From contig JACPRC010000068.1 of assembly GCA_016190175.1 (NCBI GenBank), positions 9,844 through 73,843 on the forward strand: a DNA stretch of 64,000 nt, written 5' to 3'. Of the stretch, positions 231 to 18,016 are shown piece by piece (the stretch's first letter is position 1; every line of letters starts with the position of its first letter). Source of the stretch: Planctomycetota bacterium. GTDB lineage: Bacteria; Planctomycetota; MHYJ01; JACPRB01. The notes beneath the pieces are model-generated. The model searched no databases, was not told the origin of the DNA, and was given only the letters and a program-made list of their open reading frames with translations. Both the position numbers and the translations under genes were made by a program.

Positions 231-243
231 TCGGCGCTCCGGC

Positions 244-1119: not shown

Positions 1120-1128
1120 CCGCCGCCC

Positions 1129-1446
1129 TCACTTCACCTTGGACTTGAGAACCCGCTTCGCCGCTTCCTTCAGCGCGCCCATCACGGGATGGGAGGCGAC
1201 GTCGGCGAAGACGCGATCGAGCTCGGCATCCACTTCGGCCGCCCGCTTCTCCGGATCCACGCCGGCGCTCCCCAGCCCGGGGGAATCCTCGAGGAAGAGG
1301 TGGGTCACGTTCCTGCCCCGGAGCGTCTCGAGGATCTGCAGCGAGATCTCGGTGCCGGCCTTGTAGAGGAGGTTGCCGCGGAGATCCAGGACGTCCTTGG
1401 CGACCCGCATGCCGGGTTTCGCCTCCTCGATCTTGACGACTCTCAT
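1129..1446 (-). CDS. small hypothetical protein (105 aa) upstream of the HDOD gene
   Basis: ORF with ATG start and protein-like composition (MRVVKIEEAKPGMRVAKDVLDLRGNLLYKAGTEI...). Same strand as the HDOD gene and 9 nt upstream of it. Confidence 0.6.
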   Translation of the reverse strand: MRVVKIEEAKPGMRVAKDVLDLRGNLLYKAGTEISLQILETLRGRNVTHLFLEDSPGLGSAGVDPEKRAAEVDAELDRVFADVASHPVMGALKEAAKRVLKSKVK

Positions 1447-1521
1447 GCTGCCGCCCGCAATGATAGCACGACCCGGGGTCGGCCTTGATAATTTATCGGC
1501 CGGAAGGGGGGGAAAGCCGCT

Positions 1522-2511
1522 TCACGACCGGCGGGAGACGACGAAATCCGCCAGATTCGCGAGACTCTCCGTGTGAGCGGACGGCGGGACCTCCCGCAGC
1601 GCCGCCTTGGCCTCCTCCGCGAACTCCTGCGCCCGCCCGAGGGACCACGCGAGCACGTCCCGCTCGTGCAGGAGCCGCAGCACCTCCGCCCGGGGGTCCT
1701 TCCCGTTGGCGGATGACATCACCTGCTGCAACCCCCGGCGCTCGCCGGGAGACAGCTCTTTCAGCAGGCGGATGACGGGCAGGGTCAGCTTCCCCTTCGC
1801 CAGATCCGTCCCCAGCGACTTGCCCATCACGCGCTCGTCGCCCGTGATGTCGAGGCAGTCGTCCACGATCTGGAACGCGATGCCGACCTTCTCGCCGTAT
1901 TCGGCCAGCGCCTCCGCGATCCGCGGCTCCGCCTCCGTCCCCACGGCGCCCAGGCGGCAGGCGGTCGAGAAGAGAACGGCGGTCTTGAGGCGGATCAGGT
2001 TCAGGTACTGATCCTCCTCGAGGTCGAAGTTGAACCTCCCCGCGATCTGGGAGAGCTCGCCGACGCAGATGTCCTGCACGGCCGTGGCGAAGATGAGGTT
2101 CGCCTCGCGATTGTGGAGCCGCGCGCAGAGGGCGTAGGCCTTCGCGAAGAGGTAGTCGCCGAAGAGGACGGAGGCCTCGTTTCCCCACATCCGATTGAGA
2201 GTCGGGACGTTGCGGCGGATCTCGGCCTCGTCCAGGACGTCGTCGTGCGCCAGGGTCGCCGTGTGGAGCATCTCGATCACGGCGGCGAGGCCGTAATGCA
2301 GCTCCTGAGGTTCGCCCCCGCAGATATGGGCGCTGTAGAGGAGCAGGGCGGGGCGGGCGCGCTTGCCCTGGTGTTTCGTCTGGTGTTCGACGAGGGTCTG
2401 CACGAACGGATTGGGGTTGGCCGCCTCCCGCCGGATGAGCGCCTCGACGCGCGCGATCTCCGCGCGGATCGGCTCGAAGAGCCCGGCGGCCTCGGCGGTC
2501 CTCTCCGTCAC
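1522..2511 (-). CDS. ispB: polyprenyl diphosphate synthase (IspB-like)
   Basis: Both Asp-rich motifs are present (LAHDDVLDEAEIRRN and FQIVDDCLDITGD). The ORF is open to 2601, but GTG at 2511 preceded by GGGAGGGG gives a typical ~329-aa length. Confidence 0.88.
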   Translation of the reverse strand: MTERTAEAAGLFEPIRAEIARVEALIRREAANPNPFVQTLVEHQTKHQGKRARPALLLYSAHICGGEPQELHYGLAAVIEMLHTATLAHDDVLDEAEIRRNVPTLNRMWGNEASVLFGDYLFAKAYALCARLHNREANLIFATAVQDICVGELSQIAGRFNFDLEEDQYLNLIRLKTAVLFSTACRLGAVGTEAEPRIAEALAEYGEKVGIAFQIVDDCLDITGDERVMGKSLGTDLAKGKLTLPVIRLLKELSPGERRGLQQVMSSANGKDPRAEVLRLLHERDVLAWSLGRAQEFAEEAKAALREVPPSAHTESLANLADFVVSRRS

Positions 2512-2622
2512 GCTGCCCCTCCCTGGGTGGAAACGGAGGGGGAGTCTAGCACGGGGCGGGGGGGGCTTGCAACTGGTTTTCCGGGCGGGCCACGGAGGCA
2601 CGGAGGGCCGGCAACGGGGCGA

Positions 2623-2865
2623 CTACCGAAGCGACTCCGAATCCTTGCGGACCTTGAGCAGTGCCGACACCGCCGACGGATGGAACATCGCCACGGCGTC
2701 GTTTTCCTCGTCGTAGACTTCGATGTACCACAGCTTGGCACGGTTGGGGATCAGGAAGACGTTCTCCGGATGGCGCACAGTCACCCGCCGGCCGTTGTCC
2801 AGTTCGATGACGAACGGGACGAAGGGAGTCACGTCGAGATGCACCGTGATGCTCTGCAAGTCCAC
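2623..2865 (-). CDS. hypothetical protein (80 aa)
   Basis: ATG-started ORF with non-repetitive composition (MDLQSITVHLDVTPFVPFVIELDNGRRVTVRHPENVFLIP...). I recognise no motif. Confidence 0.5.
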   Translation of the reverse strand: MDLQSITVHLDVTPFVPFVIELDNGRRVTVRHPENVFLIPNRAKLWYIEVYDEENDAVAMFHPSAVSALLKVRKDSESLR

Positions 2866-2909
2866 GATGGGATTCTAGCGCGATGCGGCCCGGACCGCAA
2901 GCCGCAGGC

Positions 2910-3473
2910 TCAAATCAGCGCCCCGAACTCCCCCGGCGTGTTGACGTTCACGAACGGCGACCGGCCGTCCACGAGCCAGTCGCGCGGGTCGATCGGCACC
3001 CGTTCCGTCCGCACGAGGTCCTGGAAGTCCGTCGTGCGCAGTCGCATCTCGCGCAGGCGCCGCTCGATCGGCACGAGGCACGCCTTCGAGTAGACGGCGT
3101 GCAGCGGCTCCTCACCGTCGGGCGTCACCGGCAGCACGAAGTCCGCGTCGATGCCGAGCAGGTGCTCTACGAGCGGCAGGCTCACGAACGGCATGTCGCA
3201 TCCGCAGACGAAGACGCGGTCCGTCGGCGCCGCGTGAAGGAGCGCATGGACGCCCGCGACCGGGCACCGCGCGGGCAGGACGTCGCGCACGATCGGGCCG
3301 AATGCGGCAAGCCGGTCGTCGTTCGCGGAGATGAGCGCCGGCCGGCCGAGACGGTCGAGGACGTGGCGGATCAGCGGTCGCCCGGCCAGCTCCATCAGCG
3401 CCTTGTCGCGTCCCATGCGCGCGGAGAATCCGCCCGCAAGAATGCCCGCCGTCCATTCCGTTGCGCCGCCCAT
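2910..3473 (-). CDS. mobA: molybdenum cofactor guanylyltransferase
   Basis: N-terminal GILAGGFSARMGRDKAL and the overall 187-aa length are typical of MobA. The first codons lie inside the left direct repeat. Confidence 0.85.
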   Translation of the reverse strand: MGGATEWTAGILAGGFSARMGRDKALMELAGRPLIRHVLDRLGRPALISANDDRLAAFGPIVRDVLPARCPVAGVHALLHAAPTDRVFVCGCDMPFVSLPLVEHLLGIDADFVLPVTPDGEEPLHAVYSKACLVPIERRLREMRLRTTDFQDLVRTERVPIDPRDWLVDGRSPFVNVNTPGEFGALI

Positions 3474-3521
3474 CCACGACGGTTATAGTGGCGCCCCGTG
3501 GCCAAGGGAAAGGTTTTCCTC
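3451..3521. repeat. left copy of a 71-bp imperfect direct repeat (island boundary)
   Basis: gtccattccgttgcgccgcccatccacgacggttatagtggcgccccgtggccaagggaaaggttttcctc matches 13020-13090 at 65 of 71 positions in the same orientation. Confidence 0.9.
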
Positions 3522-4614
3522 AACCAATCACGAAGTGACAGTCGATCTCGACCTTGCACCCGCCGGCGCCCGGCTGAAACGACCGGGTCTGGCGGCGCCG
3601 AAGTTCGGTCACTTCGTGGTGAGCCAGGCGCGTTCGACGGCTGGAGGCGAGCGCGGCGCCTACGAGTTTCTCGAGGAGCCGCTCGGGCGGCTCGCGGACC
3701 GCGCCGAGTCGAATGACGACGTGAGCACGATCGGCCAGAACCCGCCCGATGCTTCGCCACATGTCGGCGATGAGCCGCCAGTAGCCGTCGCTCCGCTCGT
3801 GACGGTCATCCTTGGATACGCGGCGATATGTCGGGTGCGGAGGCCCGCCGAGGAACCACAGCCGGAGCCACTGGTCCTCCTCGAAGTTGGTGACGTTCAG
3901 GTAGGGCGGTGACGTGATCACGCAACGTACAGGCCCGGGGATCTGCCTCGCCAATCTGGGCAGCTTCCTCATGTCGGCGAGCAGCGCAAAGCCGCGGGTG
4001 CGCGGCGGTGGAGTCTCGTAGCGGTAGCGAGCCCGATCGCGGAGAAGGTCGAAGACGTCGCGCCGCGGGGGCCGATAGCCGCGCTCCTTCCAGAAGCGCA
4101 CCGAGTAGGCGGGTTTCGTGCTGATCGTGTGCGGCATCTGGTTGCTGAGGTAGCACGGAGATTTGTTGGTTTCTCCGTGCAGCGCCCCGAGCGCGAGCGC
4201 CGCGATCATCGAGTCGACGTTCGAGTCGTACCACCTGAGACGTTCGCGCAGGTGCAGCACTTGGCGCAACGTTTCCGGGCGGTAGGTCCATCGGAAGAAG
4301 GTCGGCAATTCTCGACGGGAGCGCTCGTAGCGGCGCGCGCGATACTCGCGCTCCAGAAAGTCAAGCCGTCGCTCCACCAAACCGAGGGCGGGCGCGTTCG
4401 TTTTCGCTCGCGTGACGCAGTACGCGACCGGGTTGACGTCGCAGCCAATGCCGCGCCTCCCCATCAGCAGCGCCTGGAACGGCAGGGTCCCGCGTCCGCA
4501 GAAAGGGTCCAGGACGACGTCTCCGGGCCGCGTGAGCCGATCGAGCCACGTCTCCGCGAACGTCTCGGGAAACATCGCAAAGTACGGACACAGGGCGTGG
4601 AATCGATGTCTCAT
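3520..4614 (-). CDS. DNA methyltransferase (SPPY catalytic motif; N4-C or N6-A type)
   Basis: The AdoMet motif VVLDPFCGRGT lies near residue 35 and the catalytic motif ITSPPY at residues 233-238. The ATG at 4614 overlaps the upstream stop as ATGA. The longer ORF reaching 4944 is Arg-rich and was rejected. Confidence 0.85.
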   Translation of the reverse strand: MRHRFHALCPYFAMFPETFAETWLDRLTRPGDVVLDPFCGRGTLPFQALLMGRRGIGCDVNPVAYCVTRAKTNAPALGLVERRLDFLEREYRARRYERSRRELPTFFRWTYRPETLRQVLHLRERLRWYDSNVDSMIAALALGALHGETNKSPCYLSNQMPHTISTKPAYSVRFWKERGYRPPRRDVFDLLRDRARYRYETPPPRTRGFALLADMRKLPRLARQIPGPVRCVITSPPYLNVTNFEEDQWLRLWFLGGPPHPTYRRVSKDDRHERSDGYWRLIADMWRSIGRVLADRAHVVIRLGAVREPPERLLEKLVGAALASSRRTRLAHHEVTELRRRQTRSFQPGAGGCKVEIDCHFVIG

Positions 4615-5579
4615 GCCCTCGCCACCTGGGCGAGAACGGACTTCGTCCACTTCGCGCTCTGGCTTCGAACCACGGCGTCCAAGCTCCGAGCGTGGAACGC
4701 GATGCGACACCGGTCGAACAAAACGCCGCCGTCGATGGCCGTGTCCGACCACTCCATTTCGCCTATCCTCCAAGGAACGAAGAAGAGCCGCACCGGATCG
4801 ACCGTGATCCCGTCCCGAAGCCACTTCTTGCAGAACGCACCGGGGTCGAGTTCGTTGAGCTTGCTCTGCCAACTCGACCGGCCGGCGGCGCACTGGCCGA
4901 AGCCGACGACCTTCCCGGGGCGACGATCGGCGAAGTCCATCCATGCGACGACGTCGAGCTTTCCGTCCCTCTGCTTGCTCGCTGTGGGGCGGGGTTTGCT
5001 TCCGCCGCCTTCACCGAGGAGGGCACAGAGGCTGTCGACCGCCCTCTGGAAGTTCGAAGGAAGTCCGCGTCGTGGGTGCCCGAACGACACGGCGCGCCCC
5101 GGTTTCCCAGCCCCTCCGAAGTACGACTCGGCGGCGGTTGCGCAGACTTCCTCGAACAGCTTCTCGACACCGACGCCGCGCGGACCTGCCTTCACACCTT
5201 GAACGGAGAGCAGGAGCAAGAAGAGGTAGGCGGACTCATGCGGCGCCTCCCGGAATCTCCCTCGAAGCTCGATGTAGTTGGCAGCAACGTCGAACGGATA
5301 TTCACCGGTGTCGCCGCCACATGCCTTCCATCGGTCCTCGATTTCGGCGAAGGCGCTCTCTGCACGCGACTGGCTGAGATCGGAGCCCTCGTCCTGGCGA
5401 TTGTGTCGCCGCTCGTGGTCCGTGCACGCGTCGATGCCGCCGCTGCGGCGGATGACCCGAACCGCATCTTCGATCGAGCTGTTTCGGTCCTTGCTCTTCA
5501 TCGCCAGGAGCTCGATCCAGTCCGCCCAAGCCTCTACCGGGTCCGTCACCGCAGGAACGGCGCTCCTCTTGCCGGTCAT
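4611..5579 (-). CDS. hypothetical protein, possible Mrr/PD-(D/E)xK-like nuclease partner of the methyltransferase
   Basis: 322 aa from MTGKRSAVPAV. ATGA overlaps at both ends indicate translational coupling. The C-terminal DGKLDVVAW...GKVVGFGQCAAG weakly resembles the Mrr-type D..D...QxK core, but the Lys is not conserved. Confidence 0.6.
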   Translation of the reverse strand: MTGKRSAVPAVTDPVEAWADWIELLAMKSKDRNSSIEDAVRVIRRSGGIDACTDHERRHNRQDEGSDLSQSRAESAFAEIEDRWKACGGDTGEYPFDVAANYIELRGRFREAPHESAYLFLLLLSVQGVKAGPRGVGVEKLFEEVCATAAESYFGGAGKPGRAVSFGHPRRGLPSNFQRAVDSLCALLGEGGGSKPRPTASKQRDGKLDVVAWMDFADRRPGKVVGFGQCAAGRSSWQSKLNELDPGAFCKKWLRDGITVDPVRLFFVPWRIGEMEWSDTAIDGGVLFDRCRIAFHARSLDAVVRSQSAKWTKSVLAQVARA

Positions 5580-6691
5580 CTCGCGTTCCGCGTCTTGGGC
5601 TTCCCGACGGACCTCCGTTCCGACATCTCGCCGTAGACATCCTCGGCAAGTTCCTTGATCTCCTTGGCTGCCTTCATCAGATCGGTTGCGCCGCTGTAGC
5701 CGGTCAGGACCGTGCCTCTTGCCTTCTGAAGCGCCTGCTTGGCGCCGATGATCGCCTCGCGGAACACGCGCTCGTCGCCGCGTCCGATGTCGAGCGACAC
5801 GTCGAGGGGCAGGCCTTGGCGCAAGGCGACGGTTGCTCGCTTGACCTGAAGCACCTCGTCGAGCTTCTTCAAGTCGGGGTTCTGGCTCTGAACGACGGGC
5901 TCCCTGTCCTCGGACTTGCTTCCGAACAGCCACACGCAGAGGTCACCCAACTCGGCCAGGTGGCTCTGTGGCACGGGCTTGCGTTCGCCCAGGGCCCGGT
6001 CGGAGACCCCCAGGAACTTCTGGATACCGCGGTACGTGAGTCCCGTGTAGAGGTGCGAGAAAGAGAAGTGTTTCTTGGCCCGATCCTCGCGGTCGAACAC
6101 CCTCGCAGCCTCGGCTTGCTCGAGGACCATAAGGCCGGCGTACAGCCGGCGAACCGTCGCGTGCTTGTCGCCGATGTCCCGGGCAATCTCGTCGAGGGGA
6201 ACGCGAAACTTGTTGTGGACGAAGGCGATGTAGTGGGCCTTGCTGTACGAGTCCCAGTTCTGCGGGCCGTTCACGTGTTTGAACCCGATGAACTGCCAGA
6301 TTCGTTTGCGCGTGCACTTGATGCACGGCAGCTTGGCCAGCTTGTCTCGGTCGGCGCGGCTGATCTCAGGCAGGTCGGTCGCACCGACCTTGCGCCTCAG
6401 ACTCGGATCGCGAAGAAGCCGAACCGCCGCGACTCGACGGTTGCCCTCGATGACGACGATTTTCCCCGACTCCTCGGCCACGTAGAGGGGTTCGTGCCGG
6501 AAGAACCCGTTGGCTGCGATGGACAGGGCGATCTCGTCCACCGCCATCTCGCGCCAGAGGCACAGCAGGATGTCGTCCTGCGAAGCCGTCTCGCTGAAGT
6601 CCGCCTCCACGAGGCGCGGGTTCTTCGCGTCCAGCACCAGGGTATCGACGTCGATGTCCTGGGGCGTCAGATCATCGAGCGTGCGCTTCAT
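5576..6691 (-). CDS. ParB N-terminal (ParB/Srx) domain protein
   Basis: 371 aa from MKRTLDDL. LDAKNPRL ... IVVIEGNRRVAAVRLL matches the ParB-like nuclease/NTPase core. It is the first gene of the three-gene coupled operon. Confidence 0.75.
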   Translation of the reverse strand: MKRTLDDLTPQDIDVDTLVLDAKNPRLVEADFSETASQDDILLCLWREMAVDEIALSIAANGFFRHEPLYVAEESGKIVVIEGNRRVAAVRLLRDPSLRRKVGATDLPEISRADRDKLAKLPCIKCTRKRIWQFIGFKHVNGPQNWDSYSKAHYIAFVHNKFRVPLDEIARDIGDKHATVRRLYAGLMVLEQAEAARVFDREDRAKKHFSFSHLYTGLTYRGIQKFLGVSDRALGERKPVPQSHLAELGDLCVWLFGSKSEDREPVVQSQNPDLKKLDEVLQVKRATVALRQGLPLDVSLDIGRGDERVFREAIIGAKQALQKARGTVLTGYSGATDLMKAAKEIKELAEDVYGEMSERRSVGKPKTRNAR

Positions 6692-6806
6692 CTTGGTCCA
6701 AGAGATAGCATCGACCCGTTCAGAGGGCCCCAGGTAGCGACCCGCCGCGGCGCGGGTGGATCGCCCGGGCCCGCGCCGCTCGCCGCGCATCGACTTCGAT
6801 CGCGGC

Positions 6807-7475
6807 CTACGCGCCCTTCTCGCCCGGCGGCTGCGTCACGGCCGCGCGCGAACGCCTCCCCGGCGAGCGGAAGAAATCGTCCGCCTCGGACTTGCTCCCC
6901 AGCATCTCCACGAGCGTCCCGTAGACCCCCGTGTACGCGCGGATCCAGTCCAGCCGGCGCACCCGCTCCGCCGCGAACGCCTGGTCGTGCGCCGCCTCGG
7001 CGTCCGCGTGTGCCTTCGCCTGGCGGACGAACCCGTCCTTGGCGGAAACCACGCCCGGCACCAAGGCCGTCAGCTCTTTGCGCCCCGCCTCTTCCACCGC
7101 CTTCAAGAGCGACCCGACCCGCACGGGCTCGTCCTCCGTGGACGCCCGGATGATGGGGTTCAAGCCCGTCGGGAAGAGCGCCTTCATCAAGGGCGCCTCG
7201 TTCTTGTTGCCGCTGAGCCGCCGCGCCTCCAGCCAGAGGTCGCGCACGGCGGCGTCGAGCCGCGCGTCCGCGGCATCCCGAACCGCCAGCGCGCGCGTCG
7301 CCGACCTCGCCGCGGCGCGCTCCTCATCGTCCGCCTTGCGGAGCCCCTCCTGCGCCTTCTGGAGCCCCTCGCCGACTTTCCGCGCGCGATCGTCCGCCAG
7401 CAGGCGGGCGATGGCATACTCGCCGTAGAAGTCCGCCAGCGTCTCGCTCGCGGTCCCCTCGTCGGGAACGTACAT
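6807..7475 (-). CDS. hypothetical alpha-helical protein (222 aa)
   Basis: ATG at 7475 preceded by GAAAGGAGGACGCTG (strong RBS). The Ala/Arg/Glu-rich sequence is predicted helical. I recognise no motif. Confidence 0.6.
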   Translation of the reverse strand: MYVPDEGTASETLADFYGEYAIARLLADDRARKVGEGLQKAQEGLRKADDEERAAARSATRALAVRDAADARLDAAVRDLWLEARRLSGNKNEAPLMKALFPTGLNPIIRASTEDEPVRVGSLLKAVEEAGRKELTALVPGVVSAKDGFVRQAKAHADAEAAHDQAFAAERVRRLDWIRAYTGVYGTLVEMLGSKSEADDFFRSPGRRSRAAVTQPPGEKGA

Positions 7476-7838
7476 CAGCGTCCTCCTTTCACGATATCGA
7501 AAGCGTGGAATCCGTTTCCATCCGGACGGGGCGCCGTCCGGGCGCGTCCGAACCGCGCTTGCTTTGCGGCCATGCCGCCTCCGCACGGACGGAATGCGCC
7601 TTTCCTCCGTGGGCCGGCCGATTCCGCGCGCGCGGAACGCCGCGCTCCGTCCTGCGGGGCGGATCCGGACGCCGCGGAATGGGCTGAACTCCGCGGGAAT
7701 GGAGAGCCCGGACATCCCGGACGTCGCCGGCCGCCGCGGAGAAACACCTTCGGCACGCGCGGAACCTCGATTCCCCGGAAGAGAAGCGGATTCTATCCCT
7801 CGCGCGCGGCAGGGCAAGGAAAATCGGGCCGGCGGCCG

Positions 7839-10800
7839 TCACGCGAGGATCGGCGCGTCGAGCGACAGGCGCACGAGGCTCGGGAGGAACGGCTCAAGTT
7901 CGCCGGGCTCGAAGCGGCACAGGCCGATGTTGAACCAGAAGGCGCCGGCGGACTCGCCGTTCAGTTTGTATTCCCCGGTGGGCTTCAGGACCGCCCAGCC
8001 GTCCGGCAGAGGGACGAGTGTCGCCAGCCGCTCGGCCGTGCGCGCATCGTGGATCTGGATGCCGTTCGCGTCTGCCGCCGCCAGGAGCGAGCCATCGCGG
8101 ACGAAGCCGATGCTGTTCACCGTGCCGGCGAATCCATCGATCCGCCGCAGTTCCTTCCCCGTCGAGAGATCCCACAACCGAACGGTGCTGTCCCCCGATC
8201 CGCTGGCCACCTGAAAGCCGTCCGGACTGAACGCGACGCTCGTCACCCAGTTCGTGTGTCCCTCGAGCCGCCGCAGTTCCCTCCCCGTCGAGAGATCCCA
8301 CAGGCGAACCGTACAGTCGTACGAACCGCTGGCCAACCGCGTGCCGTCGGGACTGAACGTGGCGCTCGTAACCCGGTGGGTGTGTCCCTCCAGCCACCGC
8401 AGTTCCTTCCCTGTGGAGAGATCCCACAACCGAACGGTTCTGCCTTCCGATCCGGTGGCAAACCGCAAGCCGTCCGGACTGAACGCGACGCCCAGGACCC
8501 CGCCGGTGTGTCCCTCGAGCCGCCGCAGTTCCTCGCCCGTCGAGAGATCCCACAACCAGACGGTCTCGTCCCACGATCCGCCGGCCAACCGCAAGCCGTC
8601 CGGACTGAACGCGACGCCCAGGACCCCGCCGGTGTGTCCTTCGAGCCGCCGCGCTTCCTTCCCCGTGGAGAGATCCCATAACCGAACCGTGCTGTCCGCC
8701 GATCCGCTGGCCAGCCGCGAGCCGTCCGGACTGAACGCGACACTCATGACCCAGTTCGTGTGTCCTTCGAGCCGCCGCGCTTCCTTCCCCGTGGAGAGAT
8801 CCCACAGCCGAATCGTCTTGTCCCACGATCCGCTGGCCAAACGCGCCCCGTTTGGGCTGGAAGCAACGTTCGTGATTCTCATCCGATGTCCTTCGAGCCG
8901 CCGCGCTTCCTTTCCCGTCGAGAGATCCCACAACCGGACGGTGTTGTCGTGCGATCCGCTGGCCAGCCGCGAGCCGTCCGGACTGAACGCGACGCTCGCA
9001 ACAAAGCCGGTGTGTCCCTCGAGCCGCCGCGGTTCCTTCCCCGTCGAGAGATCCCACACCCGAACGACGCCGTCCACCGATCCGCCGGCCAGCCGCGCCC
9101 CGTCCGAACTGAACGCGACGCTCATGACCCAGATAGTATGTCCCTCGAGCCGCCGCAGTTCCTTTCCCGTCGAGAGATCCCACAGCCGAATCGTCTTGTC
9201 CCACGATCCGCTCGCCACCCTGGAGCCGTCCGGACTGAACGCCACGCTCGTGACCAACCCGCCATGCCCCTCGGCCCGCCACACTTCTATCCCCGTCGAC
9301 AGATCCCACAACCGAACCGTGCGGTCGTCCGACCCGCTGGCCAGCCGCAAGCCGTCCGGACTGAACGCGACGCTCGTGACCGAGTTCGTGTGTCCCTCGA
9401 GCCGCCATACTTCCTTCCCCGTGGAGAGATCCCACAACCGAACGGTCTTGTCATCCGATCCGCTGGCCACCCGCAAGCCGTCCGGACTGAACGCCACGCT
9501 CGTAACCCCCTCGCCGTGTCCCTCGAGCCGTCGCGCTTCCTTCCCCGTCGAGAGATCCCACAGCCGAACGGTCTTGTCCGACGATCCGCTGGCCACCCGC
9601 AAGCCGTCCGGACTGAACGCCACGCTGATCACCTTGTCACGATGCCCCCGAAGGACGACGATGCAGGCGCCTGAGGATTGCTCCCACACGCGAACACTGC
9701 CGTCGTCGTGGCCGCCGGCGACGAACTCGCCGGAAGGACCTCCCATCGCAACGGCATTGCACGCCGATGCGAATCCTATGCACGTCCGTGTCGCATCGGG
9801 CTTGGGGAGAGCGGCGCCGAACGTGTCGCAGGTCGCGGGAAGCGTCCCCTCATACTGGGCGCCCACCAGCTTGGCGCGGTGGAAGATCGCCCGCGACACT
9901 TCCGCGCCTCGAAGATCGGCCCCCAGGAGCCGCGCGCACGAGAAGTCGGCCCCCGCGAGGTTCGCCCCGCTCAGAGTCGCCCTGGTGAGGTCGGCCTCTT
10001 GCAGCCGCGCGCCCGAAAGGTCGGCCCCCTCCAGCTTGGTTCCGACCAAGCGCGCGGCCGTCAGGTTCGCGCCGCTGAGGTCGGCGCCGGAAAGATCCTG
10101 GCCCGAAAAGTCGGCCCCGGAAAAGTCCTTCCCTTCGATCCGAACCCGCTTCGCCTTGGCGTTCGCCCGTGAGAGCAGGAGGAGCGCGTTCTTCTTCTCG
10201 ACGGGACCGGCCTTCTCCGAGGCCAGAGTCGTCTGACCCCAAGCCGTTGCCTTGTCGCGTCCAGCGAGATCGATCAGAAAGTCCGCCATCAACGGCGACA
10301 TCTCGCGGACACCGAAGATCCTGCGCGGGCCACTCGCCTCGCCCAGCTCGCGGGCGGCTCGATCGGCGACCAGCCATTCCATCACCGACTGGTGGATGAA
10401 GGAGAAACCTCCCTCTTCGTCCCTCACGAGCAGCGTGCCGCTCCCAACCTGGTGCGCCACCTCCGCCGGGCTGAGTCGAAGGCGACTCAATATCTCGGTC
10501 GCCCAAGCCACGTCTTCGGCGAGCTCGCGCGCGTTGACAGTCCGCTCCGGCCCTTCCCACAAGCGTAAGGCGATCTCGGTGACCGCCCGCCGTCGGTCCT
10601 CCAAGACGAGGGCGGACGGCGCACCCGGCGGTTGGACGCGCCCCACTTCCTGTCCTAGCCACTGATCGAGGAGGATCTTGTAAAGGCCCCCGGACGTCAC
10701 GTGTCCCGCGCGCTTCTTGGCGGCCCGCAGTCTCCGCTCGTCCAGCGCCGCGATGAAGGCGAGCATCCGAGGATTCTGGGAGAGCCCGGCAAGGTCCGGC

Positions 10801-12941
10801 ACATCCTTCAAGAGTCTCAGCCGCTCCGTCGCCTTTTTCTCGTCCCCCATCTGGTTCGACAGGAACCTCAGGATTCTCGCGTCGTCGAAGGGCTGCAGCT
10901 TCGCCACGCGCCGGCGGGCAAGCCCCTCCACGCGCCGGCTGAGGGCGCTGAGCACCTGGCGGTCCGACTCGAAGTGCTGGGTGCGGCTCGTGACCACGAC
11001 GCGCGCCTTTCCCGCCGCCGCCGCAAGGATGGTGTCGAAGTGCTCGGCGGCCCGATCGTAGGTGAGGCGCAAGGCGAGCTCATCGAACCCATCGAAGAGA
11101 AGCGCGATCCGTCCCTCTTCGAGCATGTAGCGGAACGCAGTGGGATTGAACTCCACGCCGGCTCGGGCGAAGTGCTGGGCCGCGAGCTCGTCGAGGCACC
11201 GTCCCTTCTCGAGCGCGCGCATTTCGATCAGTACGGGGAATATCCCGCCGCCCGAACTCCCAAGCGGGCGAGTCAGTTCCCTCAGCAGGAAGCTCTTGCC
11301 TGTCCCGAAATCGCCCAGGACGAGAACGAACCGGCCGAGCGGATCCTGAAGCCACTTGAAGATGGACTCCAGCGCATCTTCAGACGCACCCGTGTCCCCA
11401 TCCTCCCCCGGCTGGAACGTCATCCTCTGGGGCACGTACAGCTTGTGCGGGTACAGGCGATCATTGGCGAGCCGCTCGGTCTGCCGCGAGACGTAGGGAC
11501 GAAGATCGATCAGTCCCTGGAACTCGGTGAAGCTCACGAGCCAGACGCGCTCGTTCGCCGCTTTCCGCGCCAGATCCTCCGAAGCGGGGGCGCCGCCGTA
11601 CACGAATGCCGACTGCACTCCGGGATCCGCCCTGCGGTAGCGTTCGTGAACAGCCAGGAAGCCGTCCAAGGTCTTGTCGGTGACGTCTCCTTCGGTCCCG
11701 CTCACCGGATGGACGCAGGCCGGACCGGACTTGCCGGCAGAAACCCTGAGATAGTCGTGCCCGGAGACGGGATCGGACATCCGCTCGATCGCGGCGCCCG
11801 CATACCGGATGCGGCAGATCGCGGCGACGCGAGAGAGGAAGTCGTCCGCGAGCGGGCGGTGGTGCAGGCGTTCGAGCGCCTCTTCCGACGGTCGCGCCGA
11901 TTCGGAAGGCGAGACTGAGGGTAGCGCGAACGTGCCATGAACGGCCTCGAAGCCTACGTTTTCCTCGCGCCACCACGCGTCGCCATTCTTGGATGCGCGA
12001 TTGTCCCCGATCCACTTCTTGTCGCCGGGAGAGTATCCGCGGCACCATCGTTTGAGGCGGTCGGGCCATACTTGAACGATCTGATACTGGTTGGGCACCT
12101 CGGGAGGACGATCTTTCACCTCCACCGCGGCGCTGCCCGTTGCGAGGATCGGCACCTTCGGCGACAGCCAATCCAACTTGCCTTCGTGCCTATGACCGTG
12201 GAGAAACAGGTTGATCGTCTCGCCGAGATAGCGATTCAGGTCGGCTTCATCGCGGAGGTTCGCTTCGTCGTCAACCGGGTTCCGGCGGATGTTGTGGTGG
12301 AGCGCCCCTACGCGCAACCATCCCTGCTCCTTGTACGTGGTGAGTTTCTCCTGAAACCACCGGAGTTGCCCTTCGCCCAGAAGGCCATGGTGAACTTCGT
12401 GGCTCTCCGCCATGGTCGAGTTGAGTCCCGCGACCGCGAGCTTCAGATCCTTCAATTCATGGAGAGTCCACGGGGAATCCTCCGTGAAGGAAGCGGCCGG
12501 AGGGTGGTCCTTGTAGAAGCTGTCGAGCAGTTTCTTGCAAGCCCTCCACTTGGGAAAATACGGTTCGCGAGGTCTGGCGCCGTCGCCTTCACAGTCTGAG
12601 AAATAGGCGACGCAGTGTTTCCAATTGACGTCGTGGTTGCCGGGGACGAGCACGACGTGATCCGGTTGCAGCTTGAGGAATGCCGTGAGTTCACCCAGGA
12701 ATGTTTGTACGTCTTCGAATTCCGAGGGCATCGCCCACTCGGCCAGGTCGCCCGTGACGATAGCAAGATCCGGGGACAGCCCGTGCTGCCCTCGCAGCAA
12801 CGTGAGATCATCCTTGAGTCGTTGAATCAGCGTGTCGAAACGCCCGTCCGGGCAGTCCTTCTGCGGCACGCGAAACCGATGTTCCTTGCCGAACTGGATG
12901 TCCGAGAGGTGCAGCAATGTGATTGCGCGGGGTTCCGTCAC
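7839..12941 (-). CDS. STAND NTPase: metallophosphoesterase, P-loop NTPase (NACHT/AAA-like), pentapeptide repeats and 14 WD40 blades
   Basis: Calcineurin-like motifs LHLSDIQFG, IVTGDLAEW, VPGNHDV, LHGHRHEG. Walker A VLVLGDFGTGKS and Walker B ALLFDGFDEL. A pentapeptide run (FSGADFSGQDLSGADLSGANL...). Twelve copies of ...VRLWDLSTGKE... plus two degenerate blades. GTG at 12941 has an AGGAG RBS; the ORF is also open to ATG at 13025. Confidence 0.9.
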   Translation of the reverse strand: MTEPRAITLLHLSDIQFGKEHRFRVPQKDCPDGRFDTLIQRLKDDLTLLRGQHGLSPDLAIVTGDLAEWAMPSEFEDVQTFLGELTAFLKLQPDHVVLVPGNHDVNWKHCVAYFSDCEGDGARPREPYFPKWRACKKLLDSFYKDHPPAASFTEDSPWTLHELKDLKLAVAGLNSTMAESHEVHHGLLGEGQLRWFQEKLTTYKEQGWLRVGALHHNIRRNPVDDEANLRDEADLNRYLGETINLFLHGHRHEGKLDWLSPKVPILATGSAAVEVKDRPPEVPNQYQIVQVWPDRLKRWCRGYSPGDKKWIGDNRASKNGDAWWREENVGFEAVHGTFALPSVSPSESARPSEEALERLHHRPLADDFLSRVAAICRIRYAGAAIERMSDPVSGHDYLRVSAGKSGPACVHPVSGTEGDVTDKTLDGFLAVHERYRRADPGVQSAFVYGGAPASEDLARKAANERVWLVSFTEFQGLIDLRPYVSRQTERLANDRLYPHKLYVPQRMTFQPGEDGDTGASEDALESIFKWLQDPLGRFVLVLGDFGTGKSFLLRELTRPLGSSGGGIFPVLIEMRALEKGRCLDELAAQHFARAGVEFNPTAFRYMLEEGRIALLFDGFDELALRLTYDRAAEHFDTILAAAAGKARVVVTSRTQHFESDRQVLSALSRRVEGLARRRVAKLQPFDDARILRFLSNQMGDEKKATERLRLLKDVPDLAGLSQNPRMLAFIAALDERRLRAAKKRAGHVTSGGLYKILLDQWLGQEVGRVQPPGAPSALVLEDRRRAVTEIALRLWEGPERTVNARELAEDVAWATEILSRLRLSPAEVAHQVGSGTLLVRDEEGGFSFIHQSVMEWLVADRAARELGEASGPRRIFGVREMSPLMADFLIDLAGRDKATAWGQTTLASEKAGPVEKKNALLLLSRANAKAKRVRIEGKDFSGADFSGQDLSGADLSGANLTAARLVGTKLEGADLSGARLQEADLTRATLSGANLAGADFSCARLLGADLRGAEVSRAIFHRAKLVGAQYEGTLPATCDTFGAALPKPDATRTCIGFASACNAVAMGGPSGEFVAGGHDDGSVRVWEQSSGACIVVLRGHRDKVISVAFSPDGLRVASGSSDKTVRLWDLSTGKEARRLEGHGEGVTSVAFSPDGLRVASGSDDKTVRLWDLSTGKEVWRLEGHTNSVTSVAFSPDGLRLASGSDDRTVRLWDLSTGIEVWRAEGHGGLVTSVAFSPDGSRVASGSWDKTIRLWDLSTGKELRRLEGHTIWVMSVAFSSDGARLAGGSVDGVVRVWDLSTGKEPRRLEGHTGFVASVAFSPDGSRLASGSHDNTVRLWDLSTGKEARRLEGHRMRITNVASSPNGARLASGSWDKTIRLWDLSTGKEARRLEGHTNWVMSVAFSPDGSRLASGSADSTVRLWDLSTGKEARRLEGHTGGVLGVAFSPDGLRLAGGSWDETVWLWDLSTGEELRRLEGHTGGVLGVAFSPDGLRFATGSEGRTVRLWDLSTGKELRWLEGHTHRVTSATFSPDGTRLASGSYDCTVRLWDLSTGRELRRLEGHTNWVTSVAFSPDGFQVASGSGDSTVRLWDLSTGKELRRIDGFAGTVNSIGFVRDGSLLAAADANGIQIHDARTAERLATLVPLPDGWAVLKPTGEYKLNGESAGAFWFNIGLCRFEPGELEPFLPSLVRLSLDAPILA
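8020..9720. repeat. 126-bp tandem periodicity (WD40-encoding DNA repeats)
   Basis: Recurrent gagagatcccacaaccgaac...gtccggactgaacgc units. About 60-nt blocks at roughly 8460-8530 and 8586-8656 are almost identical. Confidence 0.85.
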
Positions 12942-13019
12942 CTGCCGATCTCCTACCGTCGAAGCGCGCGCATCATACAAGAGCGGGGTCTGACGGCGCA
13001 ACCATCCCAGCGGCCCGCG

Positions 13020-13090
13020 GTCCATTCCTTTGCGCCCGCCATCCCCGACGGTTATAGTGGCGCGCCGTGACCAAGGGAAAGGTTTTCCTC
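13020..13090. repeat. right copy of the 71-bp direct repeat (contains the cobA-hemD promoter and its first 8 codons)
   Basis: See 3451-3521: 65 of 71 positions identical. Confidence 0.9.
13030..13058 (+). promoter_or_regulatory. sigma70-like promoter of cobA-hemD, probably leaderless
   Basis: TTGCGC (13030-13035), 17-nt spacer, TATAGT (13053-13058). Only 8 nt separate the -10 element from the GTG at 13067. Confidence 0.5.
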
Positions 13091-14431
13091 GTCGGCGCCG
13101 GGCCGGGCGACCCGGACCTCATGACCGTCCGCGCGCGCGACCTTCTCCGCCGCGCCGACGTCGTCGTTCCGGACCGCCTCGCTCCGCTGGACTTGGAGCG
13201 TCTCGCTCCGGACGCCCGGATCGCGCAACCCGAGCGGCTCATCCGCGAGGCGCGGGCGGGCCGCCGCGTCGTCCGCCTGCGTGCCGGCGATCCGATGACG
13301 TTCGGCCACGTGGACGAGGAGATCGACGCGCTCCGTCGCGCCGGCATCGACTTCGAGATCGTCCCCGGCGTCACGGCCGCGCTCGCCGCGGCCGCGTGCG
13401 CCGGCATCCCGATGACCCGGCGCGACTGCGCCTCCCGTCTCACCTTCGTCATCGGGCGCGGGCCGATGGGGGAGGGCGGGGTGGACCTGGACGAACGCGG
13501 CACCGTCGTCTCCTACACGGGGGCCGCGACGCTCCGCGAGCTCGCCGCGAAGCTGCGATCCGGCGGATGGCCCGCCGGCACGCCCGCGGCCGTCGTCGAG
13601 GCCGCCGCCACGCCGCGCCACCGGGTCGTCGAGGGCACGCTCGCCGACATCGCGCGCCGGGCCCGGGACGTCCGCGCCCCGGCGGTCACGTTCGTCGGAA
13701 AGGCGGTCGGGCTTCGCGCCCCGTGGTTCGAGCGCCGGCCGCTCTTCGGCCGGCGGATCGTCGTGACCCGGCCGCGCGACCAGGCGGGCGACCTCGCCCA
13801 ACGACTCGCGGAGCTCGGCGCCGAGGTCCTGACCGTCCCGACCATCGAAATCCAACCCGTGCCGCACGCGAGGATCGACGACGCCGACCTCCTGCTCTTC
13901 ACCAGCCAGAACGGCGTGGAGTGCTATTTCCGCCGGCTGCGCGACCTGGGGCGCGATTCGCGCCGCCTCGCGAAGACGTTCGTCGCCGCCGTCGGGCCCG
14001 CCACCGCCGCCGCGCTGGAGCGGCACGGCGTCCTCGCCGACTTCGTCGCCTCCGAGTTCACGAGCGAGCGCCTCGCGCGCGAGATCGCACCGCTCGGGCG
14101 TGGCAAGACCGTGCTTCATGCGGGCGCCGACAGGACGAATCCCGAGGTGCGGCGGATCCTCGAGAAGCACGGCGCGAAGTTCCGGAAGGTCACGCTCTAC
14201 CGCATCGTCCCCGCGCAACGGCTCCGCTGTCCCGACGCGGACCTCGTCACCTTCGCCAGCGCGGAGACGGCGCGGCAGTTCGCGGCGCGGGCGGGGACGC
14301 GCATGCCCGCCGCCTGCATCGGTCCCGTTTCGGCGAAGGCCGCACGCGACGCCGGGTTCCGCGTCGCGGCCGTCGCGAAGGAATACACACTGGAGGGCCT
14401 CGTGGAGGCGATCGTGAAATGGGCGAGATGA
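13067..14431 (+). CDS. cobA: fused uroporphyrinogen-III C-methyltransferase / uroporphyrinogen-III synthase
   Basis: N-terminal KVFLVGAGPGDPDLMTVRA, VVRLRAGDP and GIPMTRRD match SUMT. The C-terminal half (RRIVVTRPRDQAGDLAQRLAELGAEVL...) resembles HemD. Confidence 0.85.
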   Translation: MTKGKVFLVGAGPGDPDLMTVRARDLLRRADVVVPDRLAPLDLERLAPDARIAQPERLIREARAGRRVVRLRAGDPMTFGHVDEEIDALRRAGIDFEIVPGVTAALAAAACAGIPMTRRDCASRLTFVIGRGPMGEGGVDLDERGTVVSYTGAATLRELAAKLRSGGWPAGTPAAVVEAAATPRHRVVEGTLADIARRARDVRAPAVTFVGKAVGLRAPWFERRPLFGRRIVVTRPRDQAGDLAQRLAELGAEVLTVPTIEIQPVPHARIDDADLLLFTSQNGVECYFRRLRDLGRDSRRLAKTFVAAVGPATAAALERHGVLADFVASEFTSERLAREIAPLGRGKTVLHAGADRTNPEVRRILEKHGAKFRKVTLYRIVPAQRLRCPDADLVTFASAETARQFAARAGTRMPAACIGPVSAKAARDAGFRVAAVAKEYTLEGLVEAIVKWAR

Positions 14432-17875: not shown

Positions 17876-17882
17876 CCGCACC

Positions 17883-17903: not shown

Positions 17904-18016
17904 AGTGCGGGGCCGCGGGATCGGGAGAGGAGGGAGAGGGGAATGGCGCTCGACACGTCTTAGCCGCCGCACGCCGGCGTGGTGACCGATTTCGAATTCT
18001 TGAGAGGGGGAATATC

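What the first reader, a model, noticed from the sequence alone, without database searches (positions are those of the whole stretch)
3451..13090. 9.5-kb defence-like island bracketed by 71-bp direct repeats that duplicate the mobA / cobA-hemD divergent promoter
**Repeats.** 3451-3521 and 13020-13090 are direct repeats with 65 of 71 positions identical. Each copy holds the whole intergenic promoter (TTGCGC-17-TATAGT) and the first 8 codons of cobA-hemD (M-T/A-KGKVFL). The left copy also overlaps the mobA start.

**Content.** Everything between the repeats is on the minus strand and is unrelated to the molybdopterin and tetrapyrrole genes on either side. It comprises a ParB-like / unknown / methyltransferase operon, an orphan helical protein and a giant STAND NTPase. 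This is the footprint of an insertion with target duplication into a tight divergent promoter.

**What is odd.** I can see no integrase, transposase or tRNA target, so the mobilisation mechanism is unclear.

**Side effect.** The duplicated promoter copy at the left end now fires antisense into the 3' end of the methyltransferase gene (the 72-aa ORF 3498-3716 begins with the duplicated cobA codons). That could modulate methyltransferase expression.
Basis: partly seen in the sequence, partly recalled or inferred. Interest (0 to 1): 0.78.

Follow-up and report, generated by a model that had tools for sequence, protein, structure and literature searches.

The report
Defence island inserted with 78-bp target duplication
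A 9.5-kb block of phage-defence genes was inserted into the tiny control region between two housekeeping genes, and the insertion copied that 78-base region to both ends so both host genes kept their starts; this type of event is already known for restriction-modification genes, but its mechanism is still unknown.

Summary
Windows 3444-3521 and 13013-13090 are a 78-nt direct repeat with 71 of 78 positions identical, and they are the only two copies in the window.

The repeat holds mobA codons 1-10, the 24-nt intergenic region and cobA-hemD codons 1-8. Two related lineages keep nine flanking genes in the same order, with mobA and cobA-hemD adjacent and none of the island genes. That is an empty site, so the 9,491 nt between the repeats is an insertion with target duplication.

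The island has no integrase, transposase, tRNA target or terminal inverted repeats.

It is composite:
- a NACHT/STAND protein (metallophosphatase, NA-iREase, NACHT, pentapeptide, 14 WD40 repeats);
- a helical protein that belongs to a real family rather than being an orphan;
- a conserved triad of a ParB-like protein, a nuclease-like protein and an N4/N6 methyltransferase.

The triad recurs in the same gene order in about 87 loci. In at least five independent loci it is flanked by long direct repeats of 83-256 nt; mismatched-pair controls gave none of comparable length.

This matches "insertion with long target duplication", described for restriction-modification units (Furuta 2010). It is a new member of a known kind, and the mechanism remains unresolved.

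The parts
3444..3521 (.). Left copy of the 78-nt direct repeat. It holds the functional mobA codons 1-10, the 24-nt intergenic region, and a non-functional copy of cobA-hemD codons 1-8.
   Evidence: (D5)
13013..13090 (.). Right copy of the 78-nt direct repeat. It holds a non-functional copy of mobA codons 1-10 (ATG 13042), the 24-nt intergenic region, and the functional cobA-hemD start (GTG 13067).
3482..3489 (.). Shared TATA core GTTATAGT. TATAGT on the + strand lies 8 nt before the duplicated cobA-hemD GTG (3498). TATAAC on the - strand lies 8 nt before the mobA ATG (3473). The same core is at 13051-13058 in the right copy. I infer a bidirectional promoter of the leaderless type.
   Evidence: Sequence read. 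A TAnnnT element 6-8 nt upstream of the cobA-hemD GTG is also present in L009 and L011. The scanner found no consensus promoter.
2910..3473 (-). mobA (MobA-like NTP transferase), the host gene on the left flank.
   Evidence: PF12804, 7e-29; orthologues in L009 and L011
3520..4614 (-). DNA methyltransferase (N6_N4_Mtase, SPPY motif), the last gene of the triad. Its stop codon abuts the left repeat.
   Evidence: (PADLOC MTase_II, 6e-37)
4611..5579 (-). Middle triad protein, 322 aa, with no Pfam family. The predicted fold weakly resembles the MspJI and Card1/Can2 nucleases.
   Evidence: (phrog_3984)
5576..6691 (-). ParB-like protein, the first gene of the triad. Its N-terminal domain resembles PD-lambda-5 A.
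   Evidence: 1.8e-17; TIGR00180, 2.7e-4; phrog_3694, 3e-74
6807..7475 (-). All-helical protein of 222 aa, a member of a family of unknown function. It has a strong AAAGGAGGA ribosome-binding site upstream.
7790..7817 (-). Promoter-like site TTGCCC-16-TAGAAT in the 363-nt gap downstream of the STAND gene. It is a candidate promoter for the helical gene and the triad.
   Evidence: 9 of 12 matches
7839..12941 (-). NACHT/STAND protein: Metallophos, NA-iREase3, NACHT, pentapeptide repeats, then about 14 WD40 repeats. The probable start is GTG 12941; the open frame runs on to ATG 13025.
12942..13012 (-). 71-nt island-borne leader of the STAND gene. It contains AGGAG 8 nt before the GTG, and TTGCGC-18-TATGAT.
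   Evidence: Sequence read.
12953..13042 (-). 29-codon upstream ORF. It begins with the duplicated mobA start and ends at a TAG that overlaps the STAND ribosome-binding site, 12 nt before the GTG.
13067..14431 (+). cobA-hemD fusion (uroporphyrinogen-III methyltransferase/synthase), the host gene on the right flank.
3498..3716 (+). 72-codon frame that begins with the duplicated cobA-hemD codons and runs antisense to the methyltransferase 3' end. Its codon-position GC does not look coding, so it is a by-product of the duplication.
   Evidence: codon-position GC 0.74, 0.72, 0.54

Best explanation
**What it is.** A 9,491-nt composite defence island (3522-13012) was inserted into the control region between the divergent genes mobA and cobA-hemD. 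The event duplicated 78 nt of target. That segment holds both start codons and, by inference, both promoters: a shared TATA core with each -35 region lying in the first codons of the opposite gene. After the insertion, each host gene therefore still has an intact 5' end and control region.

**Most likely mechanism (inferred, not shown).** Two breaks about 78 nt apart on opposite strands were joined to the ends of foreign DNA without homology, and the gaps were filled in, which produced the repeat. The seven differences between the copies arose later, mainly in the copies that no longer code.

**Likely driver.** The probable driver or passenger-in-chief is the conserved triad of a ParB-like protein, a nuclease-like protein and an N4/N6 methyltransferase. 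It is a restriction-modification-like module that is repeatedly found flanked by long target-derived repeats in unrelated genomes.

**Other cargo.** The NACHT/STAND gene and the helical-protein gene are separate cargo sitting between the upstream repeat and the triad.

**Expression (inferred).** The whole island is co-oriented with mobA. The right repeat copy can feed transcription into the STAND gene through a 29-codon upstream ORF. mobA keeps its own repeat copy and may also receive read-through from the triad.
For: **Shown**
- The 78-nt repeat is 71 of 78 identical and occurs only twice in the window.
- The repeat content is read directly from the sequence.
- An empty site with nine collinear flanking genes and no island gene is present in two related lineages.
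- No integrase or transposase is found in the five genes or in ten antisense ORFs. There are no terminal inverted repeats and no tRNA gene nearby.
- The triad is conserved in gene order in essentially every one of about 87 loci where the contig is long enough.
- Homology to the closest copy, L014 (81% nucleotide identity), starts and stops exactly at the triad ends, 3520-6694.
- Long direct repeats flank the triad in L026/27 (114 nt), L030 (170-217 nt), L053 (102 nt), L073 (92 and 256 nt) and L096 (83 nt). Mismatched-pair controls gave 0 of 48 hits and one 24-nt hit.
- In L026 and L073 the repeats are pieces of flanking genes, so they are target-derived.
- In L026, as in the window, the repeat abuts the methyltransferase stop codon.
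- In L073, as in the window, extra DNA lies between the upstream repeat and the ParB-like gene.
- The published class and its criteria are insert under 20 kb, R and M genes present, duplication over 30 bp, and no mobility genes. Imperfect repeats such as 44/46 and 384/412 are reported there (PMC2853133).

**Inferred**
- The break-and-join mechanism.
- The promoter assignments.
- Read-through transcription and translational coupling.
Against: - No empty site from a close relative exists. The nearest flanking orthologues are 47-86% identical, so the repeat DNA itself cannot be aligned to a single ancestral copy.
- Only about 5 of roughly 34 distinct triad loci with adequate flanks show repeats, so most copies carry no such scar.
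- In the window the repeats bracket the STAND and helical genes as well, so the triad need not have been the element that made the duplication.
- Tetranucleotide composition gives no sign of foreign origin.
- The restriction component is not established. The nuclease-like fold match is weak: Foldseek E 0.02, TM 0.30.
- The repeats are only 91% identical, which also fits a model in which the two copies were different alleles from the start.
Confidence: 0.6

Rival explanations
1. **Campbell-type integration.** A circular DNA carried the island plus a copy of the mobA/cobA-hemD control region taken from a related donor, where it had looped out between flanking repeats. It integrated by a single homologous crossover. 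The two repeats are then donor and recipient alleles, which would explain the 9% divergence.
For: - The repeat copies are only 91% identical.
- The closest triad copy sits on a 3,725-nt contig whose ends share 16 identical nt. That fits a circle, a tandem array, or repeat-flanked DNA.
- An amplification and release cycle for repeat-flanked restriction-modification units has been proposed (PMC2853133).
Against: - The longest perfectly identical stretches are 20 and 18 nt within a 78-nt homology, which is poor substrate for RecA-type recombination.
- No donor lineage with this island at this locus was found; the closest relatives have empty sites.
- The first duplication would still need another mechanism.
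Confidence: 0.17
2. **Active self-insertion.** The triad is an autonomous mobile element. Its ParB-like and nuclease-like proteins make the staggered target breaks and join the cassette, which gives long target duplications of variable length.
For: - Long target-derived repeats recur around this one cassette family in unrelated genomes.
- The cassette ends are sharp: homology to L014 stops exactly at the triad ends.
- The repeat abuts the methyltransferase stop codon in two independent loci.
- About twice as many homologue-bearing contigs measure 3.2-3.9 kb as fall in the neighbouring size bins. This rests on my manual count of contig lengths in the table.
Against: - Most loci have no repeats.
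- Repeat length and distance from the cassette vary widely: 0-597 nt downstream and 106-6,321 nt upstream.
- No conserved terminal sequence exists beyond the coding ends.
- Neither protein resembles a known transposase or recombinase.
Confidence: 0.12
3. **Decayed integrative element.** The island is the remnant of a site-specific integrative element, or an element mobilised in trans. The 78-nt repeats are attL and attR, and the integrase has been lost or is encoded elsewhere.
For: - Direct repeats of tens of bases flanking genomic islands are the usual signature of integrase-mediated insertion.
- Imperfect att repeats are common (general knowledge; discussed in PMC2853133).
Against: - The island has no integrase, no integrase remnant and no spare coding room. 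The five genes fill it apart from gaps of 115 and 363 nt.
- The target is not a tRNA gene.
- Repeats flanking the same triad elsewhere are unrelated in sequence and vary in length. That argues against a fixed att site.
Confidence: 0.07
4. **Not an insertion.** The island is ancestral at this locus. The two related lineages lost it by recombination between the repeats, which arose from an older local duplication.
For: Direct repeats promote deletion and leave a single copy that looks like an empty site (general knowledge).
Against: - It needs two independent losses against one gain.
- The triad and the STAND family are patchily spread over many phyla, and their closest relatives lie outside this lineage.
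- Island GC3 is lower than that of the flanking genes.
Confidence: 0.04

Closest known systems
Insertion with long target duplication of restriction-modification gene units (Nobusato et al. 2000, cited as reference 37 in Furuta, Abe & Kobayashi 2010, PMC2853133)
   Same: - The insert is under 20 kb and carries a DNA methyltransferase with putative nuclease partners.
- It has no integrase or transposase.
- It is flanked by imperfect direct repeats longer than 30 bp that are derived from the target.
- The repeat overlaps the ends of host genes.
- Relatives have an empty site.
   Different: - The host is an uncultured, probably planctomycete lineage rather than the Proteobacteria, Cyanobacteria and Actinobacteria reported.
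- The insert also carries a 1,700-aa NACHT/STAND gene and a helical-protein gene.
- The duplicated segment is a whole divergent control region with both start codons.
- The empty-site comparison is between genera rather than between strains.
- The restriction subunit is not identified.
Gene trio in the P2-like phage hotspot next to the portal gene: Wphi gp98, gp96 and Mth; vB_EcoM-12474III gp04-gp06
   Same: A ParB N-terminal-domain protein of about 370-400 aa is followed by a protein of about 330 aa that is homologous to the middle triad protein (22% identity, E 7e-9). Shared motifs include DxxxDxVA, GQC and DRxRI. A DNA methyltransferase lies next to them.
   Different: The phage methyltransferase is annotated as a cytosine methylase, lies on the opposite strand, and is unrelated to the window's N6_N4 enzyme. 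The phage trio sits in a prophage hotspot and is not flanked by target repeats.
PD-lambda-5 (Vassallo et al. 2022, PMC9519451)
   Same: The ParB-like N-terminal domain of the first triad protein matches PD-Lambda-5_A models (best 1.8e-17). PD-lambda-5 is described as a compacted RM+Abi system and needed an mrr-deleted host.
   Different: Only residues 13-170 match, out of profiles of about 470 positions. The middle protein matches no PADLOC model, and among the 25 methyltransferase matches shown (of 57), none was PD-Lambda-5_B. The window has three genes rather than two.
Bacterial NACHT (NLR-like) anti-phage STAND proteins
   Same: The architecture is an N-terminal effector (calcineurin-like phosphoesterase), the NACHT-associated NA-iREase3 domain, a NACHT NTPase, and C-terminal repeat sensors (pentapeptide and WD40). 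There are weak matches to the NCBIfam anti-phage NACHT models HyoA and EruA and to an anti-phage phosphoesterase model.
   Different: All NCBIfam anti-phage matches are far below their cut-offs. No member of this exact architecture is known to me to have been tested. It is not linked to the triad elsewhere.

Membership tests
Insertion with long target duplication (criteria of Furuta et al. 2010) | The inserted segment is shorter than 20 kb. | tested here: met
   9,491 nt lie between the repeats (3522-13012); the start-to-start spacing is 9,569 nt.
Insertion with long target duplication (criteria of Furuta et al. 2010) | The target duplication is longer than 30 bp. | tested here: met
   78 nt, 71 of 78 identical.
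Insertion with long target duplication (criteria of Furuta et al. 2010) | Both M and R gene homologues lie in the insert. | tested here: inconclusive
   The M gene is clear (PF01555; PADLOC MTase_II, 6e-37). The R gene is only suggested, by a ParB-like domain and a weak MspJI/Card1-like fold.
Insertion with long target duplication (criteria of Furuta et al. 2010) | There are no other mobility genes or elements. | tested here: met
   No integrase or transposase family appears in the five genes or in ten antisense ORFs. There are no terminal inverted repeats, and the only tRNA gene is at 31144.
Insertion with long target duplication (criteria of Furuta et al. 2010) | Both repeats align with one sequence at an empty site in a compared genome. 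| tested here: inconclusive
   The empty site is shown by gene order in L009-L013. These relatives are too distant for the 78 nt to align beyond the TAnnnT-GTG element.
Insertion with long target duplication (criteria of Furuta et al. 2010) | The repeat is not a multi-copy genomic repeat. | tested here: inconclusive
   There are only two copies in the 64-kb window and none in the JGI metagenome contigs. The rest of the genome is not available.
Integrase-mediated genomic island or prophage | A tyrosine or serine recombinase gene lies at one end. | tested here: not met
Integrase-mediated genomic island or prophage | The att core lies in a tRNA or tmRNA gene or another recurrent att site. | tested here: not met
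   There is no tRNA at either end. Repeats around other triad copies are unrelated in sequence.
DNA transposon or insertion sequence | Terminal inverted repeats, a short target duplication of fixed length, and a transposase. | tested here: not met
   The best inverted match between the two 300-nt island ends is 8 nt. The duplication is 78 nt here and 83-256 nt in the other loci scored as repeat-flanked. No transposase is present.
PD-lambda-5 | Both PD-Lambda-5_A and PD-Lambda-5_B are matched over their full length. | tested here: not met
   A is matched only over its N-terminal 160 or so positions. The middle protein has no PADLOC match. Among the 25 methyltransferase matches shown (of 57), none was PD-Lambda-5_B.
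Bacterial NACHT (NLR-like) defence proteins | A NACHT NTPase domain with an N-terminal effector and a C-terminal repeat sensor. | tested here: met
   NACHT scores 32.3 bits against a cut-off of 26.7, Metallophos 40.7 against 21.5, and NA-iREase3 105.8 against 27. Pentapeptide and WD40 repeats are also present.
Bacterial NACHT (NLR-like) defence proteins | Protection against phage. | not testable with these tools
   Needs expression and plaque assays.
Type II restriction-modification system | A sequence-specific methyltransferase with a cognate endonuclease whose cleavage is blocked by the methylation. | not testable with these tools
   Only domain-level evidence is available. Pairing of the ParB-like and middle proteins with an unrelated methyltransferase in P2-like phages fits a modular R plus M design.

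The most novel reading that the evidence does not exclude
The triad of ParB-like protein, nuclease-like protein and methyltransferase is a self-mobilising restriction-modification-like element. Its own ParB-like and nuclease-like proteins create widely staggered target breaks and insert the cassette, sometimes with neighbouring cargo such as the STAND gene. This produces long target duplications of variable length. The repeats then allow looping-out or tandem amplification, which the 16-nt terminal redundancy of contig L014 could reflect. That would give a molecular basis for the long-proposed virus-like life cycle of restriction-modification units.
Probability: 0.12. Interest if true: 0.85.

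Novelty: new member of a known kind. Interest (0 to 1): 0.5.

Why it matters
'Insertion with long target duplication' has been catalogued for restriction-modification units, in the work cited by Furuta et al. (2010), but its mechanism is unknown.

- **A family to work on.** It has relatives in the P2 phage defence hotspot and one possibly circular or tandem copy. That gives a concrete family on which the mechanism could be tested.
- **How the insertion was tolerated.** This locus shows how a defence island can land inside a 24-nt divergent control region of housekeeping genes (molybdenum cofactor and tetrapyrrole synthesis) without inactivating either one. The duplication regenerates the full control region on both sides.
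- **Possible expression effects.** The duplication may also supply expression signals to the incoming genes.

Tried and rejected
- **Exact-protein look-ups.** Look-ups of the window's own MobA and CobA-HemD found nothing on record.
- **GTDB species representatives.** A scan for CobA-HemD gave only distant relatives of at most 41% identity, plus one 43-residue fragment at 67%. There was no close genome.
- **Metagenome scan.** A 24-nt repeat core gave no match in the JGI metagenome contigs, so no strain-level empty site could be obtained.
- **Composition.** The tetranucleotide profile does not distinguish the island. Only the internally repetitive WD40 region deviates, at z = 2.3. Composition was dropped as evidence; GC3 is only mildly lower.
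- **STAND start.** I first took the STAND start to be ATG 13025 inside the repeat. I rejected this because homologues start 4-9 residues before the ITLLHLSD motif, and GTG 12941 has an AGGAG site upstream.
- **A STAND-helical pair.** I tested whether the helical protein is a conserved partner of the STAND gene. The protein downstream of a STAND homologue in L102 is unrelated, and the helical family occurs in other contexts.
- **A conserved cassette terminus.** None was found beyond the coding ends. Only subsets of loci share a block of about 130 nt upstream.
- **The L052 repeat.** The 44-nt repeat in L052 is a palindromic GGGGAC...GTCCCC element, so I did not count it as a target duplication.
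- **Viral and plasmid collections.** IMG/VR contigs hold no relative of the middle protein, and plasmids hold none.
- **Solved structures.** Sequence searches of the PDB with profiles of the middle and helical proteins gave nothing significant. The fold search for the helical protein gave only generic helical bundles.
Full report
**1. The observation**

The two repeat copies are real. The repeat finder reports 3444-3521 and 13013-13090 as a 78-nt direct repeat at 91% identity. It is the only long two-copy repeat bracketing this region in window positions 1-20000. Base-by-base comparison gives 71 of 78 identical positions, with mismatches at left-copy positions 3450, 3460, 3468, 3469, 3476, 3495 and 3501.

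A 41-nt degenerate core occurs exactly twice in the 64-kb window and never in 100 shuffles. A 24-nt core has no match in the JGI metagenome contigs.

**2. What the repeat contains**

Reading the sequence shows that each copy contains three parts:
- mobA codons 1-10 on the minus strand (30 nt);
- the whole 24-nt intergenic region;
- cobA-hemD codons 1-8 on the plus strand (24 nt).

In the left copy the mobA part is the working gene start (ATG 3473), and the cobA-hemD part is a dead copy that opens a 72-codon non-coding frame. In the right copy the cobA-hemD part is the working start (GTG 13067). The mobA part there is a dead copy (ATG 13042) that opens a 29-codon frame.

It matches the sigma-70 consensus at only 8 of 12 positions, and the scanner reports no promoter there.

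Support for a real -10 element comes from relatives. A TAnnnT hexamer lies 6-8 nt upstream of the cobA-hemD GTG in L009 and L011 as well. That spacing suggests a leaderless transcript.

The core GTTATAGT also reads TATAAC on the minus strand, exactly 8 nt before the mobA ATG. I therefore infer a symmetric bidirectional promoter with a shared TATA core. Each -35 region would lie inside the first codons of the opposite gene. On that reading the 78 nt are the complete control unit of both genes. This is inference from the sequence, not a tested result.

**3. Gene content**

All island genes are on the minus strand.

| Coordinates | Product | Key evidence |
|---|---|---|
| 7839-12941 | NACHT/STAND protein, about 1,700 aa | Metallophos, NA-iREase3, NACHT, pentapeptide repeats, about 14 WD40 repeats |
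| 6807-7475 | Helical protein, 222 aa | 158 cluster-level relatives |
| 5576-6691 | ParB-like protein | PADLOC PD-Lambda-5_A 1.8e-17 (N-terminal domain only); phrog_3694 3e-74 |
| 4611-5579 | Middle protein, 322 aa | No Pfam family |
| 3520-4614 | N6_N4 DNA methyltransferase | PADLOC MTase_II 6e-37; SPPY motif |

*STAND gene.* The open frame extends to ATG 13025 inside the repeat. Homologues, however, begin 4-9 residues before the ITLLHLSD motif, and GTG 12941 is preceded by AGGAG at 8 nt. The real start is therefore most likely 12941, which leaves a 71-nt island-borne leader.

*Helical protein.* It is not an orphan. 158 cluster representatives align over the full length from residue 1. The AlphaFold2 model is confident (pLDDT 94.7) and consists of long helical hairpins with no informative structural match. 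Its relatives sit in varied contexts.

*Triad.* The three genes overlap by ATGA-type junctions. The model of the middle protein (pLDDT 86) weakly resembles the MspJI restriction enzyme and the Card1/Can2 nucleases (Foldseek E 0.02, probability 0.98, TM 0.30).

*Gaps and shadow ORFs.* Gaps of 115 and 363 nt show no coding signal. Ten antisense ORFs match no Pfam family.

**4. Is it an insertion?**

The closest CobA-HemD proteins in 5.8 billion sequences are only 60-61% identical. Their contigs are nevertheless informative.

- In L009/L010 and L011-L013, mobA and cobA-hemD are adjacent and divergent.
- The four genes to the left and the five to the right are collinear with the window at 47-86% identity.
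- None of the five island proteins has a match there.

One gain is more parsimonious than two losses.

Composition does not help. Tetranucleotide distances of island windows lie within the spread of the rest of the window, apart from the repetitive WD40 segment. GC3 of the triad and STAND genes (0.79-0.86) is lower than in the flanking genes (0.90-0.92) but within the window's range of 0.76-0.95.

**5. What moved it**

The island has no integrase, transposase or tRNA target. Its ends share no inverted repeat longer than 8 nt.

The triad is a conserved cassette. The middle protein has 218 homologues. The gene order ParB-like, middle, methyltransferase holds in essentially every one of about 87 fetched loci where the contig is long enough, from Planctomycetota, Chloroflexi and unnamed metagenomic lineages. 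Neither the STAND gene nor the helical gene accompanies it elsewhere.

The closest copy, L014, is 81% identical in DNA. The homology begins and ends exactly at the triad ends, 3520-6694.

I compared the flanks of the 50 complete cassettes. Long direct repeats bracket the triad in the following loci.

| Locus | Repeat length | Identity |
|---|---|---|
| L026/L027 | 114 nt | 97% |
| L030 | 170-217 nt | 88-94% |
| L053 | 102 nt | 96% |
| L073 | 92 and 256 nt, nested | 93-97% |
| L096 | 83 nt | 89% |

Mismatched upstream and downstream pairs gave no hit in one control and a single 24-nt hit in the other.

The repeats are target-derived. In L026 the repeat is the 3' end of a flanking gene, and in L073 it is the 5' part of a small flanking gene. 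In L030 both copies carry a 10-of-12 promoter-like site, and the upstream one faces the cassette.

Two geometric features of the window recur. In L026 the repeat abuts the methyltransferase stop codon. In L073 extra DNA (1.7 kb) lies between the upstream repeat and the ParB-like gene.

About 5 of roughly 34 distinct loci with adequate flanks show such repeats. The feature is therefore recurrent but not universal.

**6. Comparison with what is known**

Furuta, Abe and Kobayashi (PMC2853133) define 'insertion with long target duplication' of restriction-modification units by four features:
- an insert under 20 kb;
- R and M genes present;
- a duplication over 30 bp;
- no other mobile element.

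They report imperfect repeats (for example 44/46, 384/412 and 417/423) in several phyla and for all restriction types. They suggest that double-strand breakage is involved and propose a cycle of invasion, amplification through the repeats, and release. The mechanism is unproven.

The present locus meets the size, length and no-mobility-gene criteria. The R-gene criterion and the aligned-empty-site criterion are only partly met.

The ParB-like and middle proteins also occur as a pair next to an unrelated cytosine methyltransferase in the defence hotspot of P2-like phages, namely Wphi gp98/gp96/Mth and vB_EcoM-12474III gp04-06. That arrangement fits a modular restriction module paired with exchangeable methyltransferases.

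PD-lambda-5 is described as a compacted RM+Abi system (PMC9519451). It shares only the ParB-like N-terminal domain.

The STAND protein has the architecture of bacterial NACHT defence proteins. It belongs to a widespread family whose best match is 52% identical, from another phylum.

**7. How it most likely works**

*Shown:* the repeat, its content, the empty site, the lack of mobility genes, and the recurrence of long target-derived repeats around the triad.

*Inferred:*
- Foreign DNA was joined without homology to two breaks 78 nt apart, and fill-in produced the duplication.
- An insertion here could only be tolerated because the duplication regenerated the whole divergent control unit for both host operons.
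- The right repeat copy can start a leaderless transcript at the dead mobA ATG (13042). Its 29-codon frame ends at a TAG overlapping the STAND ribosome-binding site, 12 nt before GTG 12941. Host signals may therefore contribute to STAND expression alongside the island's own TTGCGC-18-TATGAT element.
- A 9-of-12 promoter-like site at 7817-7790 may serve the helical gene and the triad.
- No convincing terminator separates the triad from mobA. Nine terminator-like hits were found against 7.3 expected.
- The left repeat copy keeps its hexamers, spacing and GTG, so antisense transcription into the methyltransferase 3' end is possible but untested.

**8. Rivals**

- Campbell-type integration of a circle carrying a donor allele of the target would explain the 9% divergence. 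It is disfavoured by the short, interrupted homology.
- Active self-insertion by the cassette's own nucleases is the most novel reading that remains open.
- A decayed integrase element and an ancestral island with two losses are unlikely.

**9. Verdict**

The finding is real and its core interpretation is right. It is a new instance of a known but mechanistically unexplained kind of event, in a poorly sampled lineage. The added value is that the cargo cassette family itself shows the same scar repeatedly.

Noticed in passing
L014 1-16 and 3710-3725: L014 is the 3,725-nt Logan contig that carries the closest triad copy. Its two ends share 16 identical nt (GGCAGCCGTTCGTTCT). That fits a 3.7-kb circle, a tandem array, or a cassette flanked by a repeat of about 44 nt that was broken by a k=31 assembly.
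   Followed up: partly
window 8007-9692: The WD40 region of the STAND gene is an array of about 12 units of 126 nt that are about 80% identical at the DNA level. This unusually high repeat-to-repeat similarity suggests concerted evolution or recent expansion of the sensor region.
   Followed up: no
L073 1459-1711 / 8543-8798 and 3087-3178 / 8129-8220: Two nested pairs of direct repeats (256 nt and 92 nt) surround one triad copy in non-collinear order. This suggests two successive insertion events at one locus. The inner repeat is the 5' part of a small flanking gene.
   Followed up: partly
L015 5802-17040 (also L016, L017): In a Planctomycetota genome the triad sits inside a type I restriction-modification cluster, between hsdM and hsdS-hsdR, next to DarT and a macro-domain gene. 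This is a dense defence island.
   Followed up: no
L018 8728-12058: In a Chloroflexi genome the triad lies between a MaoC-type dehydratase gene and the ribosomal protein L1-L11-nusG-secE cluster. No flanking repeat or mobility gene is present.
   Followed up: partly
window 31144-31236: A tRNA-Sec gene (anticodon TCA) is the only tRNA in the window. The organism probably uses selenocysteine.
   Followed up: no
L110 96-3266 and L111 3980-7016: P2-like phages carry a ParB-domain gene, a homologue of the middle triad protein and a cytosine methyltransferase next to the portal gene Q. This is the known P2 defence hotspot. I found no paper in the searched library that tests this trio.
   Followed up: partly
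window 6807-7475; L104 8001-13188: The helical protein family (158 clusters) is followed in one Acidobacteriota lineage by a 1,389-aa protein with no Pfam match. In another lineage it sits between patatin, lysozyme and HicA genes. It may be a component of uncharacterised conflict systems.
   Followed up: partly
table (contig lengths of middle-protein homologues): Among the 120 listed homologues, about 23 have a longest contig of 3.2-3.9 kb. About 10-11 fall in each neighbouring 700-nt bin. The cassette therefore often assembles on its own, as expected for a variable insertion or a free form. This is my manual count and was not tested statistically.
   Followed up: no
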